DNA of 64,000 bases, taken from the sequence record MK327943.1. One strand, 5' to 3'. The DNA is from Escherichia phage vB_EcoM_G53. A model generated the notes under the pieces. The model saw only the letters and a program-made list of their open reading frames with translations, was not told the origin of the DNA and searched no databases. Both the position numbers and the translations under genes were made by a program. Each line of letters begins with the position of its first letter. Position 1 is the stretch's first letter. Of the stretch, positions 22,310 through 63,767 are shown piece after piece.

Positions 22310-22651
22310 TTAAAAGAATTTAAATTTTTTCTTGGTTCGTTCATTAAAAGCTTGTTGTACTTGCATTGTAACACATTTTTCAACGTGTGGTGCAAGTTCT
22401 GCTTTTCTGTCCTGGTCAAGAACTGCAAAGTCCATTACGATTTTACCATCAACCCAGTCTAGTTTTGTAATATAGACTATATGATGGGAACCGTCTTCAA
22501 GTGTAATCAGAATCTCTTGAATGACATTTTCCATTGCTGAACGGACAATTTTAAGAGATTCATTAAACACTCGTTCTTTGCGAATGTCCTCCCCTTCCGA
22601 AGAAGGGGATTCATCAACGATTTCTAGATTTAAATCATCGAGATTATTCAT
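22310..22651 (-). CDS. gp40-like protein (position-based)
   Basis: ORF between 41 and uvsX, as gene 40 in T4; start placed at the ATG after the uvsX stop. Confidence 0.4.
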   Translation of the reverse strand: MNNLDDLNLEIVDESPSSEGEDIRKERVFNESLKIVRSAMENVIQEILITLEDGSHHIVYITKLDWVDGKIVMDFAVLDQDRKAELAPHVEKCVTMQVQQAFNERTKKKFKFF

Positions 22652-29704: not shown

Positions 29705-29836
29705 TCATACTTTGCCTGTAGACCAATCATAATCCATCCAATTACAAGTGTTGGAACCATTACTGGAGCCGTTAAGCTCCAGTAGATAGTCCATGACAAG
29801 CATCAATAGTAAAAGTCCTATTGTTATTGCTTTCAT
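29705..29836 (-). CDS. small hydrophobic peptide (43 aa), not in ORF track
   Basis: ATG overlaps the SIS gene stop as ATGA; MKAITIGLLLLMLVMDYLLEL... Confidence 0.3.
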   Translation of the reverse strand: MKAITIGLLLLMLVMDYLLELNGSSNGSNTCNWMDYDWSTGKV

Positions 29837-41972: not shown

Positions 41973-42349
41973 TTTACCGCCTTAACAATTTTAAGGTCAA
42001 CGAATTTTTTCTTACGTTGATTTTTCATACGACGGATAGTCTTTTCAGAGATTTCATGTTTCTGATAAGCTTTAGATTCAACACCAAATGCAGCAACGTC
42101 AAATTCAGAAAGAATATATTGTACTAGAATTTCACGAATAGAATTACGTCCAATTTTCTGGTCGTGTTTTTGCATGATTTCATAAAGACGGAATTCCCAC
42201 GCATCAAGAACTTGAGGAGTAACAATATTGCCAGATTCCAGAAGAGCAACAACTTTATCGAAAGCGAAAGAATTAACTACGTTTTTGATTTTAGTAGACA
42301 TATTATTTTCCTCGGTTATTTTATTATCCAACGAGAGAATTATACTCAT
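41969..42349 (-). CDS. hypothetical protein
   Basis: 126-aa ORF; start may be at the internal MSTKIKN. Confidence 0.4.
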   Translation of the reverse strand: MSIILSLDNKITEENNMSTKIKNVVNSFAFDKVVALLESGNIVTPQVLDAWEFRLYEIMQKHDQKIGRNSIREILVQYILSEFDVAAFGVESKAYQKHEISEKTIRRMKNQRKKKFVDLKIVKAVK

Positions 42350-43906: not shown

Positions 43907-44228
43907 AATCTTCTATGATATCAGAGTCATATCCTAATGAAATCAAGGACTTTTTAAACTCTGCAATATTCTTTTGTTTCTTATCATTTAAAAATATGAC
44001 AGGATAACGAATATTAAGTGAAGTGAATCCTGCACGTTTAGCAAGAGATATGATTAAAGGACGGTCATATTCAATCTTACCATTATTAGTGAGGACTTTA
44101 TAAAATGTATAAGGAGCATTGAGATCCTTTAAAAGTTTTGTAACAGCATAACATCCTGGACAACGTCCTACTTCTTCAGGGATGCCATAAACTTCAATTT
44201 TATTCTTTGGGTTCGAGTTTTGTTCCAC
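43905..44228 (-). CDS. thioredoxin-fold protein with CPGC motif (glutaredoxin/NrdH-like); start uncertain
   Basis: KIEVYGIPEEVGRCPGCYAVTKLL; GTG at 44228 with AAGGAA SD proposed because the upstream in-frame extension overlaps ORF 44200..44511. Confidence 0.45.
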   Translation of the reverse strand: MEQNSNPKNKIEVYGIPEEVGRCPGCYAVTKLLKDLNAPYTFYKVLTNNGKIEYDRPLIISLAKRAGFTSLNIRYPVIFLNDKKQKNIAEFKKSLISLGYDSDIIED

Positions 44229-44511
44229 GAGAAATAATTCCTTGATAAGCCCAGTACGGCGGGTTAACAGAATCATCACCAGAATTTTCTTCAGGGAAAT
44301 AAACCTGAATAACGAATCCGGATTCGTCAAAGGTAAAATACACTGTAGGCAGTTCACCAAGCAATTCGGAACGAGCGTTAATTTCTTCGAGGTCTTGCTC
44401 ACGTCCAGCCCAGAAACTATGGTTCAGTGTACACTCATAGAAATAATAGTCATTGCCAAACATGTCAAAGCCGTTCCAGCTCTCGGCGACATAACGTTCA
44501 AAACTAAGCAT
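44200..44511 (-). CDS. hypothetical protein
   Basis: 103-aa acidic ORF. Confidence 0.45.
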   Translation of the reverse strand: MLSFERYVAESWNGFDMFGNDYYFYECTLNHSFWAGREQDLEEINARSELLGELPTVYFTFDESGFVIQVYFPEENSGDDSVNPPYWAYQGIISRGTKLEPKE

Positions 44512-44513
44512 AA

Positions 44514-44768
44514 TTAGGCCTTTTTATCAAGAATACGTTCGATGCGACGAGTAATTGATTCACAACGTGCTTTAAACTCGGCAGGCGGAAGTCCCTTTTC
44601 AGGAGAAATCGTTCCAATGATGTAGAACATTACTAATGCCGGAATTGTAACCACAGCACCGATGGCCAACAAAATAACCATCACAATAAATCCGAGTGTT
44701 TGTGCTACTGCTAATCGAAATTTATACATTAGAAAAAGTTCCCGTACATTGATGCAACAAAAAGCCAT
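44514..44768 (-). CDS. small membrane protein
   Basis: 84-aa ORF with two hydrophobic segments. Confidence 0.4.
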   Translation of the reverse strand: MAFCCINVRELFLMYKFRLAVAQTLGFIVMVILLAIGAVVTIPALVMFYIIGTISPEKGLPPAEFKARCESITRRIERILDKKA

Positions 44769-44850
44769 TGAGAAGGATACTCAAGGCCCATTAGACGAAC
44801 CGCATCGTTTACTGCTTCTTGTAATGCGTAGAACACATATCCGTAAAAAT

Positions 44851-45324
44851 TCATTTAAGCGATTTCCTCAGTTGTTTTTTAAATGACGTTACCATTTTAG
44901 CTTTGGTATCGTCTTCATTATAACTAAAACCGTTTGAAAGCATTTCTGCAATCATTTCTTCTTTAGCTAATCTTGAGAACTCTTTAGTTTTGTCCGGAAC
45001 AAAATTAGGATGGATGTTATTAGCAGAATAATCTTGTTTCAAATAAGCAAGAAGAGCTTCAAGCCATTCGAGGTAGTCGACATCACGACCTTTAAGACCA
45101 GAACGGTTGAACTTATGCTTCATTTGACCTTCTGCTGCGTTGCACAGATTACAGAGTAACCCACGAACTCTACCTGCTTTTGGCCCGTTTAATTCGTGGT
45201 CGTGGTCAAGATGGTTACCTTGAACATCAGGGTCTAATTCACGGTGGCAAATAGGACACTTACCGTTCTGTGCATCATAAAATTTTTGTTTTTCTTCTTT
45301 GTATAATTTGCCAGATAATAACAT
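44851..45324 (-). CDS. 49: endonuclease VII (Holliday junction resolvase) gp49
   Basis: 157-aa ORF; zinc/HNH-like motifs CPICHRELD...NHLDHDHELNG...CNLCN; same length as T4 EndoVII. Confidence 0.85.
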   Translation of the reverse strand: MLLSGKLYKEEKQKFYDAQNGKCPICHRELDPDVQGNHLDHDHELNGPKAGRVRGLLCNLCNAAEGQMKHKFNRSGLKGRDVDYLEWLEALLAYLKQDYSANNIHPNFVPDKTKEFSRLAKEEMIAEMLSNGFSYNEDDTKAKMVTSFKKQLRKSLK

Positions 45325-45330
45325 AATAAA

Positions 45331-45361
45331 CCCTTACCATATATAGATAAGGGTATTTATA
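45331..45361 (-). promoter_or_regulatory. gene 49 control region: late promoter TATAAATA plus SD-sequestering hairpin
   Basis: TATAAATA at 45354..45361 (minus); mRNA hairpin ccctta-N11-taaggg whose 3' arm carries the SD-like AAGGG 7 nt before the ATG. Confidence 0.55.
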
Positions 45362-45363
45362 AT

Positions 45364-45543
45364 TTAGTAAACGTTATAAAAGTCTCGATGAAAACGTTTA
45401 TACTGTCGAATCATTCTTTTAGTAGGACGTGTTACCGAAATGATTGAAGTCCTCATGTTTGGATTGTTTGGAGCCCCAATCATAATAAATTTCCAGGATT
45501 TTTGGCCGTTTGTTCTTTCGCCATAAAATAGTTCAGTTTTCAT
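45364..45543 (-). CDS. small basic protein, RPTKRQ-motif family (59 aa), not in ORF track
   Basis: MKTELFYGERTNGQKSWKF...VTRPTKRMIRQYKRFHRDFYNVY; AAAGG SD. Confidence 0.4.
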   Translation of the reverse strand: MKTELFYGERTNGQKSWKFIMIGAPNNPNMRTSIISVTRPTKRMIRQYKRFHRDFYNVY

Positions 45544-45552
45544 AATAAACCT

Positions 45553-45966
45553 TTAACTTAAACGTCTTTCTAAATATTCAACGTATTCCGCTGCGGCTTG
45601 CATCAGATTACCTTCATAACCGTCATTATTTTCTTGGGCGGCTAATTTAGCTAAAGCATAAGAAATACGTTCACCTTCGAATTCGCCAAGTCCACCATCA
45701 CAAACTACTTGGTCAATTTCTTCGAGTTCATCTATTGAATGGGATTCCCAGAAGCACCAAAGAGAAGTATCACGGTCATAGATGCAAAGTTTCTCACCTG
45801 TGTTCAACATCACTTCAATAATGCCATGGTCGCCATAACCATCTTCGGTAGTAGTACCAATTACCTTGATGATCGTATCTTTCTTTAATTCAGGAAACTT
45901 GACTTGTAGTTCTTCATCTTCTTTAACAATCTTGAACCATTTACCGCGAGTTTCAGAAATATTCAT
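45553..45966 (-). CDS. hypothetical acidic protein (start placed at MNISETRGKW)
   Basis: ORF 45553..46104 trimmed to the ATG just after the stop of the upstream small ORF. Confidence 0.4.
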   Translation of the reverse strand: MNISETRGKWFKIVKEDEELQVKFPELKKDTIIKVIGTTTEDGYGDHGIIEVMLNTGEKLCIYDRDTSLWCFWESHSIDELEEIDQVVCDGGLGEFEGERISYALAKLAAQENNDGYEGNLMQAAAEYVEYLERRLS

Positions 45967-45967
45967 A

Positions 45968-46138
45968 TCAATATTCTCTATAAAAGTTACGATGAGAACG
46001 TTTAGCTTTGCGAAGCTGACGTTTAGTAGGACGAACTGTAAACGGTTGTCCAGAGAAAAAATTCGGATCGGTTTTAATAAGCAAATACCAATCATGCTTG
46101 CCATTTTTTAATAAACGGTACAATAATTTAACTTGCAT
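45968..46138 (-). CDS. small basic protein, RPTKRQ-motif family (56 aa)
   Basis: ORF-track start at 46165 is a TTG; ATG at 46138; C-terminal VRPTKRQLRKAKRSHRNFYREY. Confidence 0.4.
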   Translation of the reverse strand: MQVKLLYRLLKNGKHDWYLLIKTDPNFFSGQPFTVRPTKRQLRKAKRSHRNFYREY

Positions 46139-46266
46139 AATAATCTCTTCCCATCTCCATATCAATTAATTCATTTATTGAAGGTTCATCATAACACGTT
46201 TCTTCGTCGTTGTAAACTGTTTCGACGTCCGGCTCGACTGTCTCCCATCGAGCCGAATACCATGGC

Positions 46267-46623
46267 TTAACCCCGGAGTTTATTGAGCTCTTCATAATCA
46301 ATCCAGGATTCTAGCCCTGACGGCAGGTCACATTCAATGTTCCACAGAAGCTCTTCAATGGCTTGCAGGCGATTATATTCTTCAACGGTAATGGTAACCA
46401 TTGGTGCAACCGGTTCTGCCTTTTTAACCATCATGTCGTTCATCAGGACGTAAAGGTCATCACGAACGACAGTGTCGTTCCATCCCCATGATTTGGCTTC
46501 GTAAGCTAATGATGAAGGGAGCACATTTAAAACTTCAATAATAGTTGGAGCATCAGGACCAAGTTCATTGGCACAAACTTCGTATACATCTTGGAAATCT
46601 TTAAGATTTAATGAATATGTCAT
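46267..46623 (-). CDS. hypothetical protein
   Basis: 118-aa acidic ORF. Confidence 0.45.
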   Translation of the reverse strand: MTYSLNLKDFQDVYEVCANELGPDAPTIIEVLNVLPSSLAYEAKSWGWNDTVVRDDLYVLMNDMMVKKAEPVAPMVTITVEEYNRLQAIEELLWNIECDLPSGLESWIDYEELNKLRG

Positions 46624-46641
46624 TTAAAATTTTCTCGCAGG

Positions 46642-46938
46642 TTATTGTTCTACCCATGAACAAGAGACTTCAAAATCAGGACCACCGTATTCCCAGTGAT
46701 ATTCACCAACAGGAATCCAGTCACCGTGCTCGTTTTCTTCATAGTCCTCAGGCTCAAGGCCAACGAATCGCCATTGGACACCGATGATTCGATTACCCAT
46801 CATTACTCGAAATTCGCCCCATGGATTATCGATAGCATACTGAATATCGTTCTTGGCACGAGAGCACATTTCTTGATATAATAAAGCTTCTAATTCACCC
46901 TTGTCATAAGGACCAGGGAAAGTTAAATCAATACTCAT
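46642..46938 (-). CDS. hypothetical protein
   Basis: 98-aa Trp-rich acidic ORF. Confidence 0.45.
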   Translation of the reverse strand: MSIDLTFPGPYDKGELEALLYQEMCSRAKNDIQYAIDNPWGEFRVMMGNRIIGVQWRFVGLEPEDYEENEHGDWIPVGEYHWEYGGPDFEVSCSWVEQ

Positions 46939-47198
46939 TTAAAATATTCTCGTAGTTGGTCAAATCCACCAATGTGACTTCCGTCAGGAGCAAACACCTG
47001 AGGCATAGTCAATCCAACTTGTGATTCACGTCCAAGCTTAACCAGAAGCTCAGTAATTTTCTCATCATCGAACACACCTTTTTCCGGCATAACATTAATG
47101 AATTCGAATGGTTGTTTCTTAACAGTCAGCAATCGTTTCGCATTATCACAATAAATGCATTTATGAATAGTAGAGTCATACCCGTACACTTTAAACAT
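46935..47198 (-). CDS. nrdC: thioredoxin NrdC
   Basis: 87 aa from MFKVYGYDS; CIYCDNAKRL active site; near-identical to T4 NrdC as I recall it. Confidence 0.85.
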   Translation of the reverse strand: MFKVYGYDSTIHKCIYCDNAKRLLTVKKQPFEFINVMPEKGVFDDEKITELLVKLGRESQVGLTMPQVFAPDGSHIGGFDQLREYFK

Positions 47199-47604
47199 TA
47201 TTTTTCCTTTCATCGATTAAATATGCAATGCCAAATACAATACATGTAATAAAACCTGTGATACAGATAGAAACCAACAATACTGTACCAAAGAACCAAA
47301 TCAAGTTATCTTTGGTAGTTTGTTTGATATCCATCTCACGAATTTCTATAGCTATCGTATCACCTTTATTCAGAAGCGTATAAAACGATGGCGATACACG
47401 CCTGTCAAAAACTCGTCCTTGCTCATCTTTATAGACTGCAATAAATTCTAATTTAGAATATTTTCCTGTAGATTGGCCTGAGATTAATTCCACTACCTCC
47501 ACAGGAATTACTTTAGTTTCCATGTAAGTATTCTGGCTGTTCCAAATGAATGGAATAATAGCAAAAACTAAAGCTGCGATAAAACAACGAAGGCTATATC
47601 TCAT
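47191..47604 (-). CDS. membrane protein
   Basis: 137-aa ORF with N- and C-terminal hydrophobic helices. Confidence 0.45.
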   Translation of the reverse strand: MRYSLRCFIAALVFAIIPFIWNSQNTYMETKVIPVEVVELISGQSTGKYSKLEFIAVYKDEQGRVFDRRVSPSFYTLLNKGDTIAIEIREMDIKQTTKDNLIWFFGTVLLVSICITGFITCIVFGIAYLIDERKNNV

Positions 47605-62012: not shown

Positions 62013-62342
62013 TTATACTCTAGGCTTTTGAGCTTGTTTGGTATTGGATTCCCATGCGGCTTTGGTAATTTTGTTAGCGGCATAACCAAAGGCATTAGAT
62101 AGAACACCTTTAGAGTTGAATACATCCAATCCAATAAGTACACCGGCTGTGTTAAATTTAGGAGCAAAGTACGCATTAGTTTTAGAAAGAACTTTTTTCA
62201 ATTCAGGGTCTTGAACCAAGCCATCAAAAACGCCTTTACTATTTACTTTGTATGTTACTTTGGGATTTTTACCTTCTTCGATAGCAGCTTTCTGTTCCGC
62301 AGATAATGTAACTTCAGTGATAAACTCCTGATATGTTTTCAT
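62013..62342 (-). CDS. internal protein (IP) with capsid-targeting leader
   Basis: 109-aa ORF beginning MKTYQEFITE, the T4 IP leader consensus; AAGGA SD. Confidence 0.6.
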   Translation of the reverse strand: MKTYQEFITEVTLSAEQKAAIEEGKNPKVTYKVNSKGVFDGLVQDPELKKVLSKTNAYFAPKFNTAGVLIGLDVFNSKGVLSNAFGYAANKITKAAWESNTKQAQKPRV

Positions 62343-62367
62343 TTTGTTCCTATTGTTTTAATTTATG

Positions 62368-62682
62368 TTATTCTTTAGGGAAGTTTTTAGAGTATGCATC
62401 ATAAAGTTTATTACCAATACGACGGAAGACTTTAGCTGCAAAACGGTTTTCAGGGTTTTTAATCATGATTTGCATCATGTAAGTTCCTGCATCCGAAAGA
62501 GCTTCTTCATAGTACCCATTAATTTCTTTAAGAGTCCTACGTTTACCGCCAGGACCATCAACAGTAATTTTCCATTTACCTGTAGAAGTGCGGCTCGGTG
62601 GCTCAACTTGTTCAATCCAAATATAACCACCTTCAACGCGTTGGTTGGCGGATTCTGCAATAAATTCTTTATACGTTTTCAT
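62368..62682 (-). CDS. internal protein (IP) with capsid-targeting leader
   Basis: 104-aa ORF beginning MKTYKEFIAE. Confidence 0.6.
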   Translation of the reverse strand: MKTYKEFIAESANQRVEGGYIWIEQVEPPSRTSTGKWKITVDGPGGKRRTLKEINGYYEEALSDAGTYMMQIMIKNPENRFAAKVFRRIGNKLYDAYSKNFPKE

Positions 62683-62746
62683 TTTTTGTTTCCTTGTTTG
62701 TTTTGATAGAGTAATTATACCATATTAATACTTAAGCGTAAACAAT

Positions 62747-63007
62747 TTAAGCTTTACCGCCAGAAATAATTCCGAAGTTGTTAAAATCGTATCCAATATC
62801 GTCAACATCTACTTTAGGGCTTGCTACAACATAAGCAATTTCACTACGTTTTGCATAGGTGTTGATTTCTTTACCATCGCCACCTAAGAAAGAATACCCA
62901 TTACGTTTTAATGAGCCAAAGTCTTCCGCATCACCAATGAAAGCTTTAACTTTAAATTTGGGGTCTTTGGCATCTGCTTCAATGATAAATTCTTGATACA
63001 TTTTCAT
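62747..63007 (-). CDS. internal protein-like product from the internal start inside the denV frame
   Basis: ATG at 63007 preceded by TAAGGAAAAA; [14 protein letters not shown] leader. Confidence 0.45.
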
Positions 63008-63427
63008 TTTTTCCTTAGTAAATTGATTACCATAGTATTTGTACCAAGTCGGACGTTGAGCAATTTTTTCATCTAAGCGTGCTTGACTTATCGCAATGGA
63101 CGCTTCGGACGGGACGTAATTATTACGAAATTCGGCAGGAATGTCGGAAATATCCTGGACAGTCGTGTCCTTGATTTTGAAACCGCGTTTCAAGCATTCA
63201 GCGATTAGCTCGATTTGTCGTAAACGTAAAAATTCGAGTTTGTCGTAAAAGAATGTTACGTGACCTGTGCCTAAGATAAATGTTGGAGAGATTTTAAAAT
63301 CCTTTACACGTTTACCGTTTTGAACATGTTTACGGACTGCACCAAATACGCGTGGTAATTCACGATACTCAGCCATAAGATGTTGGTCGGACAGTTCAGA
63401 AACAAGTGTTAAATTGATACGAGTCAT
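62747..63427 (-). CDS. denV: DenV endonuclease V (pyrimidine-dimer glycosylase) reading in-frame into an IP-like C-terminal module
   Basis: from the ATG at 63427: [34 protein letters not shown] matches T4 DenV as I recall it; no stop before [10 protein letters not shown] at 63007. Confidence 0.75.
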
Positions 63428-63455
63428 AATTTCCTCCAAGTAGTTGATGAATGTA

Positions 63456-63485
63456 TAGTATCAAAACCCTTGGAGGAAGTAAACA
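63456..63485 (-). promoter_or_regulatory. early promoter with inverted repeat spanning spacer and denV SD
   Basis: minus strand GTTTAC, 18-nt spacer, TACTAT; cctccaag pairs with cttggagg carrying the SD; coordinates approximate. Confidence 0.45.
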
Positions 63486-63767
63486 CTATTTTTCTGAAGC
63501 GCCTGAAATATATTTTTCAAGACGTTGTTTCATTAGCGAGCCGTTCTTAGCGATTTCTTCCGGTTTATCGCACATACGTAACAAGGCTTCAAGCTTAGCG
63601 ATATCGCTGGTACGTTCAAATTTGCGAGTATCTATTTTACTAGCAAGTTCAGAAATACGTGCTAATAGACTTTCAGCTTCAACCAAAGCTGCACCTAGCT
63701 TAGTTGCAAATGTGTCGGTAGCTTCGTTAAGAATAGATTCTGATAAAAATTCACTATATGTTTTCAT
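63486..63767 (-). CDS. internal protein (IP) with capsid-targeting leader
   Basis: 93 aa from [10 protein letters not shown]; ATG overlaps the e stop codon (ATGA). Confidence 0.55.

What the first reader, a model, noticed from the sequence alone, without database searches (positions are those of the whole stretch)
62747..63427. denV reads without a stop codon into an internal-protein module
The DenV-like sequence runs through WYKYYG and continues in frame into [14 protein letters not shown], a capsid-targeting leader, while a strong RBS (TAAGGAAAAA) precedes the internal ATG at 63007. This predicts both a DenV-IP fusion and a separately initiated IP from the same frame. In T4, as I recall, denV and the IP genes are separate.
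Basis: seen in the sequence. Interest (0 to 1): 0.55.

Follow-up and report, generated by a model that had tools for sequence, protein, structure and literature searches.

The report
One-base deletion fuses denV to IP gene
In this RB69-like phage, loss of a single A four codons before the end of the UV-repair gene denV makes it read into the next gene, an internal head protein; relatives keep two separate genes, so this is a private, probably neutral mutation (or possibly a base-calling error), not a designed fusion protein.

Summary
On the minus strand, ATG 63427 to TAA 62749-62747 is one 226-codon ORF. It consists of DenV residues 1-133 (about 90% identical to T4 endonuclease V), a linker NQFTKEK, and an 86-aa internal head protein (IP) that keeps its own Shine-Dalgarno sequence and ATG at 63007. 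The cause is simple. RB69, APCEc01 and five other relatives read GGTAAATCAATTTACTAAGG (…YYGKSIY*), whereas the window reads GGTAAT. One A is missing from an A3 run (window 63027-63028). This puts the ancestral TAA (63017-63015) out of frame and moves DenV into the IP frame, which is already open upstream of the IP start. No other sequence has this junction: 0 of 176 GenBank phage records, 0 in IMG/VR, 0 in JGI metagenomes, and no fused homolog among 5.8 billion proteins. Two records (vB_EQ1, MRostami-2023e) reach the same fusion independently by TAA→CAA. Other relatives carry deletions or frameshifts in denV or the IP gene, so the locus is dispensable and lesion-prone. denV is the only one of 122 syntenic genes in the window with a frame-changing indel, so the assembly is clean and the deletion is probably real. 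Verdict: known genes carrying a sporadic frameshift allele, of low interest.

The parts
62747..63427 (-). Fused denV::IP86 ORF, 226 codons plus TAA stop; predicted product 25.9 kDa
63029..63427 (-). DenV (endonuclease V / pyrimidine-dimer glycosylase) part, codons 1-133, with T2, R3, R22, E23, R26 and W128-Y132 intact
   Evidence: Pfam PF03013 1.5e-13; phrog_1183 2e-61; PDB 2END 4e-79 over residues 1-134; residue check
63027..63028 (-). A2 run where seven relatives have A3; site of the private 1-nt deletion that causes the frameshift
   Evidence: alignment A1; indel lists; the only private indel in 2.1 kb against 7 relatives; junction strings
63008..63028 (-). Seven new codons, NQFTKEK, that replace the ancestral tail KSIY* and link DenV to the IP
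63015..63017 (-). Ancestral denV TAA stop, still present but now out of frame
63011..63016 (-). Shine-Dalgarno-like AAGGAA of the IP gene, identical to APCEc01 where it serves a separate gene
62747..63007 (-). IP86 internal head protein gene (86 codons plus stop), homolog of RB69p125
   Evidence: phrog_2667 2.6e-21; RefSeq annotation of RB69 and APCEc01; homologs of 84-87 aa
62978..63007 (-). Capsid-targeting sequence [10 protein letters not shown] (residues 141-150 of the fusion), ending in the gp21 cleavage motif I-I-E
   Evidence: alignment with T4 IPII/IPIII; motif scan; CTS definition from PMC9026906
63433..63437 (-). GGAGG Shine-Dalgarno sequence of denV
   Evidence: read directly from the sequence
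63455..63484 (-). T4-early-promoter-like GTTTAC-N18-TACTAT upstream of denV (inferred); no terminator or promoter lies between denV and IP86
   Evidence: sequence; pattern as annotated in SA79RD; consensus scan

Best explanation
This is a genuine but sporadic frameshift allele. An APCEc01-like ancestor (GGTAAATCAATTTACTAAGGAAAAAATG) lost one A from the A3 run, four codons before the denV stop. The ribosome then reads GGT AAT CAA TTT ACT AAG GAA AAA ATG, passes the old TAA out of frame, and enters the reading frame of the downstream internal-head-protein gene. In this lineage that frame is already open for about 22 codons upstream of its ATG. Expected products (inferred, not shown): (i) from the denV start, DenV(1-133)-NQFTKEK-IP86, 25.9 kDa, expressed with denV; (ii) from the unchanged AAGGAA/ATG at 63007, the normal 9.5-kDa IP precursor, which is targeted to the prohead by its N-terminal leader and trimmed by the gp21 protease after IIE. 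The DenV catalytic dyad (N-terminal Thr2 amino group and Glu23) and the WYKYY segment lie upstream of the shift, so the fusion may keep glycosylase activity, but the conserved K-x-I-Y tail is lost. The allele has no selected function. It is one of many lesions tolerated in a dispensable, fast-changing locus.
For: Mechanism of the fusion, shown directly: junction alignment and strings. Private status: 0 of 176 GenBank phage records are identical at the junction; 0 matches in IMG/VR and in JGI metagenomes; the exact protein is not on record; the top 120 of 1578 homologs are all unfused, about 137 aa, covering 59% of the query; no IP86 homolog is longer than 91 aa. The assembly is clean: 116 of 122 APCEc01 genes are intact in the window and denV is the only gene with a frame-changing indel. 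The lineage has real private divergence, 5 substitutions and 1 indel in 2.1 kb. The locus is dispensable and lesion-prone: F27 has lost about 320 nt of denV; P0132 joins DenV residues 1-30 to the IP86 C-terminus; P0131, P0130, P0128 and P0127 are deleted, frameshifted or truncated IP86 alleles. The fusion is tolerated: an independent TAA→CAA fusion occurs in vB_EQ1 and MRostami-2023e. The IP frame being open upstream is shown by P0131. Catalytic residues are intact, and the N-terminal amine plus Glu dyad is described in PMC5422863.
Against: No reads are available, so a consensus error at this one base cannot be excluded. No expression or protein data exist. Whether ribosomes translating through the IP start site reduce independent IP initiation is unknown. 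Whether DenV tolerates a 93-residue C-terminal extension is unknown; both structure predictions were uninformative.
Confidence: 0.72

Rival explanations
1. Base-calling or assembly error: the real phage has AAA and two separate genes, and the fusion exists only in the deposited sequence.
For: The difference is a homopolymer-length change of one base. It is a singleton among more than 176 relatives and all metagenome collections searched. The window has one other private single-base indel, an extra G at 29792 that is absent from all 153 relatives.
Against: An A3 run is short for a homopolymer error. No other gene out of 122 is frame-broken. The 29792 indel lies upstream of the 36-aa ORF that RB69 annotates, so it is effectively non-coding. 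All other indels against APCEc01 are intergenic or sum to multiples of three, which is the pattern expected from selection-filtered real variation. The lineage has genuine private substitutions.
Confidence: 0.22
2. Selected functional fusion: the internal capsid-targeting sequence carries DenV into the prohead. gp21 then cuts after IIE150, and a 17.6-kDa DenV is packaged and injected with the DNA to repair UV damage immediately on infection.
For: The fusion places a complete CTS and gp21 motif directly after DenV. The same architecture arose twice independently. The T4 CTS can carry foreign cargo into heads (PMC9026906 and PMC3012670).
Against: Every documented working CTS is at the N-terminus with the cargo downstream, whereas here the cargo is upstream. 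DenV itself contains two further gp21-type motifs (IAE75-77, LDE118-120), so it would probably be cut if packaged. The allele is a singleton and the TAA→CAA allele is in only 2 of 194 records. The frame relation between denV and the IP gene is not conserved across relatives, with junction spans of 83, 84 and 85 nt.
Confidence: 0.05
3. Programmed recoding: Mosigviruses normally make some DenV-IP by stop-codon readthrough or frameshifting, and the window merely hard-wires it.
For: In RB69-type genomes denV and the IP gene are in the same frame, separated by a single TAA.
Against: APCEc01-type genomes have them in different frames, and about 9 of the 60 best GenBank rows have junction spans of 84-85 nt instead of 83, so the frame relation is not conserved. 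No slippery heptamer is present. From general knowledge of E. coli termination, TAA followed by G is an efficient terminator. Other T-even genera have several stops or long spacers between denV and the next IP gene.
Confidence: 0.01

Closest known systems
RB69 denV (RB69p126) and the adjacent internal head protein RB69p125; likewise APCEc01_178 and APCEc01_179
   Same: The same two genes in the same order and context (e, IP, denV, IP, IP, IP, vs.8), 97.8-98.8% DNA identity over 781 nt.
   Different: The relatives have a TAA after ...YYGKSIY and a 6-7 nt spacer before the IP ATG. The window lacks one A, so there is no in-frame stop.
The 681-nt 'endonuclease V' CDS of Escherichia phage vB_EQ1 (PQ516281), with an identical junction in MRostami-2023e (OQ031495)
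   Same: The same 226-codon DenV-IP86 fused ORF, annotated as one CDS.
   Different: It arose by a TAA→CAA substitution on the RB69-type in-frame background (linker KSIYQGK), not by a frameshift (linker NQFTKEK). The two are independent events.
T4 denV, ipII and ipIII
   Same: DenV is about 90% identical over residues 1-134. The IP leader matches T4 MKTYQEFIAE at M1, K2, Y4, E6, F7 and E10.
   Different: In T4 the IP genes lie upstream of denV, and denV is followed by vs.8. The mature IP86 sequence is unrelated to T4 IPII/IPIII beyond the leader.
Engineered T4 CTS fusions (CTS or IPIII fused to GFP, beta-galactosidase, staphylococcal nuclease and others)
   Same: A capsid-targeting leader covalently linked to a non-structural enzyme (PMC9026906).
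   Different: In the engineered fusions the CTS is N-terminal with the cargo on its C-terminal side, so the cargo stays with the mature protein. Here the enzyme is N-terminal to the CTS and would be on the propeptide side of the cut.

Membership tests
T4 endonuclease V / pyrimidine-dimer DNA glycosylase (Pfam PF03013, phrog_1183) | Significant sequence match to the family profile and to solved T4 endonuclease V | tested here: met
   PF03013 1.5e-13; phrog_1183 2.2e-61; 2END 4.1e-79 over residues 1-134
T4 endonuclease V / pyrimidine-dimer DNA glycosylase (Pfam PF03013, phrog_1183) | Catalytic dyad of the N-terminal Thr2 alpha-amino group and Glu23, plus Arg3, Arg22, Arg26 and the WYKYY segment | tested here: met
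   T2, R3, R22, E23, R26 and W128-Y132 are present; the dyad is described in PMC5422863
T4 endonuclease V / pyrimidine-dimer DNA glycosylase (Pfam PF03013, phrog_1183) | Single-domain protein of about 134-147 aa ending in a short G-K-x-I-Y tail followed by a stop | tested here: not met
   The window ORF has 226 codons and the tail is replaced by NQFTKEK plus IP86. All 80 IMG/VR loci stop at residues 134-171
T4 endonuclease V / pyrimidine-dimer DNA glycosylase (Pfam PF03013, phrog_1183) | Glycosylase/AP-lyase activity on cyclobutane pyrimidine dimers | not testable with these tools
   Needs an enzyme assay or UV-survival tests
T-even internal head proteins (CTS-bearing IPs; phrog_2667) | Ten-residue capsid-targeting leader with Y4 and F7 (targeting) and I8 and E10 (processing) | tested here: met
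   [10 protein letters not shown] aligns with T4 IPII/IPIII, with M1, K2, Y4, E6, F7 and E10 invariant; definition from PMC9026906
T-even internal head proteins (CTS-bearing IPs; phrog_2667) | The leader sits at the N-terminus of the translated protein | tested here: inconclusive
   Met for the product initiated at 63007. Not met for the 226-aa fusion, where the leader is residues 141-150. Which product predominates is unknown
T-even internal head proteins (CTS-bearing IPs; phrog_2667) | gp21 cleavage motif L/I-X-E at the end of the leader | tested here: met
   I148-I149-E150
T-even internal head proteins (CTS-bearing IPs; phrog_2667) | Profile match to an IP family | tested here: met
   phrog_2667 'internal head protein', 2.6e-21
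T-even internal head proteins (CTS-bearing IPs; phrog_2667) | Physical presence in the capsid and ejection with the DNA | not testable with these tools
   Needs virion proteomics
Programmed translational recoding (readthrough or frameshift fusion products) | Frame relationship of the two ORFs and the recoding signal are conserved among relatives | tested here: not met
   Junction spans of 83, 84 and 85 nt occur among relatives, and the A5 and A6 spacers put the IP gene in different frames relative to denV. No slippery site was seen in the sequence

The most novel reading that the evidence does not exclude
The fusion is real and expressed, and the internal capsid-targeting leader still directs it into proheads. 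This phage, and independently vB_EQ1, would then package a UV-repair glycosylase and deliver it with the genome. That would be a natural example of cargo capture by the IP leader working from an internal position.
Probability: 0.04. Interest if true: 0.6.

Novelty: already known. Interest (0 to 1): 0.15.

Why it matters
It matters little for biology at large. denV and the internal head protein are known genes of RB69-like phages, and the fusion is a one-base private allele. It has three modest uses. First, annotation pipelines will call a 226-aa 'endonuclease V' here, as already happened for vB_EQ1, and will lose the IP gene, so curators should annotate the internal start. Second, together with the F27 deletion and several broken IP86 alleles, it documents that the denV/IP cluster is a dispensable, fast-decaying region. 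This fits the view that IPs are diverse, exchangeable anti-restriction cargo that share only the targeting leader (PMC3012670). Third, the two independent natural fusions give a ready-made test of whether a T4-type targeting leader can work from an internal position.

Tried and rejected
(1) Structure prediction gave nothing usable. IP86 with a 6-sequence alignment gave mean pLDDT 47, and the fusion as a single sequence gave 34.5, so no fold search was run. (2) Two attempts to build a fusion-wide alignment (A3 and A4) failed because MAFFT placed the short IP homologs under the DenV half, and both were discarded. (3) I recalled that the T4 WYKYY codons contain the late-promoter box TATAAATA, which would drive the downstream gene. 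This is wrong: T4 reads TGGTACAAATACTAC, and its TATAAATA boxes lie upstream of gene e. The window has no TATAAATA within 5 kb of the locus. (4) RB69 was a poor comparator for error estimation, because it differs from the window by many compensated 1-nt indel clusters, so APCEc01 was used instead. (5) The second private frameshift at window 29792 first suggested an error-prone assembly. It lies upstream of the 36-aa ORF that RB69 annotates and breaks no conserved gene. (6) tblastn matches covering residues 1-226 (L004, L005) or 1-153 (L006-L009) looked like further fusions, but all contain stops that tblastn read through. (7) vB_Eco_F27, with a single feature under the match, looked like another fusion but is a denV deletion. 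(8) Literature searches found no description of a denV-IP fusion.

Full report
**Observation**

The window is the early-gene region of an RB69-like T-even phage (genus Mosigvirus). A 781-nt query around the finding matches 238 phage records, with APCEc01 best at 98.8% and RB69 at 97.8%. On the minus strand there is one uninterrupted ORF from ATG 63427 to TAA 62749-62747, 226 codons long.

- Residues 1-134 are endonuclease V / pyrimidine-dimer glycosylase: Pfam PF03013 at 1.5e-13, phrog_1183 at 2e-61, and T4 endonuclease V structure 2END at 4e-79.
- Residues 141-226 match phrog_2667, 'internal head protein'.
- That part begins [10 protein letters not shown]. This aligns with the T4 IPII/IPIII leader MKTYQEFIAE, with M1, K2, Y4, E6, F7 and E10 invariant.
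- The internal ATG at 63007 is preceded by TAAGGAAAAA.

**What causes the fusion**

In RefSeq, RB69 and APCEc01 have two genes here: denV (137 codons, ending ...WYKYYGKSIY-TAA) and, 6-13 nt downstream, an 84-86-codon internal head protein. The junction strings are:

| Genome | Junction |
|---|---|
| RB69, F27, SA79RD, two IMG/VR contigs | GGTAAATCAATTTAC**TAA**GGAAAAATG |
| APCEc01 | GGTAAATCAATTTAC**TAA**GGAAAAAATG |
| Window | GGTAATCAATTTACTAAGGAAAAAATG |

The window differs from its closest relative, APCEc01, by loss of one A from the A3 run (window 63027-63028). The ancestral TAA (63017-63015) is still there but is now out of frame. DenV continues as N-Q-F-T-K-E-K and then reads the IP gene in its own frame. 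In APCEc01-type genomes that frame is already open for about 22 codons upstream of the IP start. A database protein called from such a genome, P0131, begins [29 protein letters not shown]. So a single base is enough to join the two genes.

**How common it is**

| Collection searched | Result |
|---|---|
| GenBank phage records (83-nt junction query) | 0 of 176 identical; best 98.8%, one gap |
| IMG/VR (exact 37-mer) | 0 matches |
| JGI metagenome contigs (exact 37-mer) | 0 matches |
| 153 billion called genes (exact 226-aa product) | not on record |
| 5.8 billion proteins, fusion as query | best 120 of 1578 hits are unfused DenV, 124-242 aa, each covering only 50-77% of the query |
| Same database, IP86 as query | 12 clusters, none longer than 91 aa |
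| 80 IMG/VR denV loci | all stop at residues 134-171 |

Apparent full-length tblastn matches were read through stop codons. A leader-bearing IP gene often follows denV in other T-even genera (L006-L009, L013, L016, L017, L025, L029), but always after one or more stops.

One other fusion exists. vB_EQ1 (PQ516281, annotated as a 681-nt denV CDS) and MRostami-2023e share a TAA→CAA substitution on the RB69-type background, where denV and the IP gene are in the same frame. That is 2 of 194 records. The same architecture has therefore arisen at least twice by different mutations, and it is rare both times.

**Real mutation or sequencing error**

I compared the window with APCEc01 gene by gene. Of 122 annotated APCEc01 proteins syntenic with the window, 116 have an intact counterpart ending at the same stop. 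The exceptions are:

- denV itself;
- nrdD and nrdG, which are absent because of a deletion;
- two genes with differences of 1-2 residues at the C-terminus;
- a 47-aa hypothetical ORF whose indel (window 29792, also private) lies upstream of the 36-aa version that RB69 annotates.

All other indels against APCEc01 are intergenic or sum to multiples of three. In the local 2.1 kb the window has five private substitutions and this one private indel relative to seven relatives.

The assembly is therefore clean and the lineage is genuinely distinct. The single frame-changing indel sits four codons from the end of a non-essential gene, which is the pattern expected from real variation filtered by selection. 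An A3→A2 miscall in a consensus is possible but unlikely. I put a real allele at about 0.75 and an error at about 0.2. Only the reads can settle it.

**The locus is dispensable**

- vB_Eco_F27 has lost about 320 nt of denV, leaving MTRPKRPLR*.
- P0132 is a deletion joining DenV residues 1-30 to the last 24 residues of IP86.
- P0131 has a 48-residue deletion in IP86.
- P0130 and P0128 are frameshifted IP86 alleles, and P0127 (from UFV13) is truncated.

This fits the published view that T-even internal proteins are a diverse, exchangeable set of injected anti-restriction proteins that share only the targeting leader (PMC3012670).

**How it most likely works**

*Shown:* the ORF structure, the intact DenV catalytic residues (T2, R3, R22, E23, R26, W128-Y132), and the intact IP ribosome-binding site, ATG and leader.

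*Inferred:*

- denV has a GGAGG Shine-Dalgarno sequence and a T4-early-like GTTTAC-N18-TACTAT box upstream (pattern as annotated in SA79RD).
- No promoter or terminator separates denV from IP86. The next promoter-like site (62742-62714) lies after the fused ORF. The two genes are therefore probably co-transcribed.
- Ribosomes starting at 63427 should make a 25.9-kDa DenV-NQFTKEK-IP86 protein. Ribosomes starting at 63007 should make the normal 9.5-kDa IP precursor.
[quoted passage not shown] However, the moderately conserved K-x-I-Y tail is lost, so activity may be reduced.
- The IP leader is defined as the first 10 residues, with positions 4 and 7 needed for targeting and positions 8 and 10 for processing. 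gp21 cuts after L/I-X-E (PMC9026906).
- In the fusion the leader is internal (residues 141-150), an arrangement never tested. DenV also carries two further gp21-type motifs (IAE75-77, LDE118-120). Packaging of active DenV is therefore unlikely.

**Rivals**

- Sequencing error: about 0.2.
- A selected fusion that packages DenV: about 0.05. The evidence against it is the rarity of the allele, the leader being on the wrong side of the cargo, and the internal cleavage motifs.
- Programmed readthrough or frameshifting as a normal feature of Mosigviruses: about 0.01. The frame relation between the two genes is not conserved. Of the 60 best junction hits, 51 span 83 nt, 7 span 84 nt and 2 span 85 nt. 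The A5 and A6 spacers put the genes in the same or different frames.

**Comparison with known systems and verdict**

These are the known denV and internal-head-protein genes of RB69-type phages. T4 keeps its IP genes upstream of denV and separate from it. The fused ORF fails one defining feature of the endonuclease V family, the single domain of about 138 aa. For its long product it also fails the N-terminal position of the IP leader. Both failures trace to one missing base.

Nothing here is a new kind of system, and no paper describing such a fusion was found. The practical lesson concerns annotation: the IP gene should still be called from 63007. The only forward-looking value is as a natural test of whether a T4 capsid-targeting leader can work from an internal position. 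Interest is low (0.15).

Noticed in passing
window 44609-44850 (context 44200-45400): The window lacks the anaerobic ribonucleotide reductase genes nrdD and nrdG that lie between gene 49 and gp55.8 in RB69 (44977-47261) and APCEc01. About 240 nt, including an 84-aa membrane-like ORF (44514-44768, minus strand), occupy the site. No phage record spans this junction: 0 of 288 matching records cover at least 80% of an 851-nt query. The adjacent endonuclease VII gene (44851-45324) is a divergent allele, about 89% identical to APCEc01.
   Followed up: partly
window 62013-63767, minus strand: Four genes with the T4-type capsid-targeting leader surround denV: 63486-63767 (93 aa, phrog_3499), 62747-63007 (86 aa, phrog_2667), 62368-62682 (104 aa) and 62013-62342 (109 aa). 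The last two are paralogs in phrog_3966. T4 has only ipIII and ipII here, both upstream of denV. The mature IP86 is acidic (pI about 5.2).
   Followed up: partly
L084 (vB_Eco_F27, OP870146) 1140-1260; proteins P0127, P0128, P0130, P0131, P0132: There is a range of independent lesions at the same locus in other isolates and assemblies. These are a deletion of about 320 nt inside denV, a deletion joining DenV residues 1-30 to the last 24 residues of IP86, a 48-residue deletion in IP86, two IP86 frameshifts and one truncation.
   Followed up: partly
L003 (vB_EQ1, PQ516281) 1554-2234; OQ031495 106176-106258: There is an independent DenV-IP86 fusion by a TAA→CAA substitution, annotated in GenBank as a single 681-nt 'endonuclease V' CDS, so the IP gene is lost from the annotation. 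vB_EQ1 also has a 579-nt 'internal virion protein' CDS where relatives have two IP genes, possibly a second fusion.
   Followed up: partly
window 29792: An extra G (CATGGAC against CATGAC on the minus strand) is absent from all 153 matching phage records. It lies in the N-terminal part of APCEc01_252 (47 aa) but upstream of the 36-aa RB69ORF054c, so it is probably non-coding.
   Followed up: yes
window 22403-22479 and 42163-42192 against RB69 (L088, L089): The RB69 reference differs from the window by clusters of three single-base indels within less than 80 nt that together restore the frame. These are local frame-shifted stretches inside genes, either real or legacy errors in the 2003 RB69 record.
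   Followed up: no
window 62682 and 63007-63012: The A-runs immediately upstream of the ATG of two successive IP genes vary in length among relatives (A4-ATG against A5-ATG). This changes the spacing between the Shine-Dalgarno sequence and the start codon and, at the denV junction, the frame relation between denV and IP86.
   Followed up: partly
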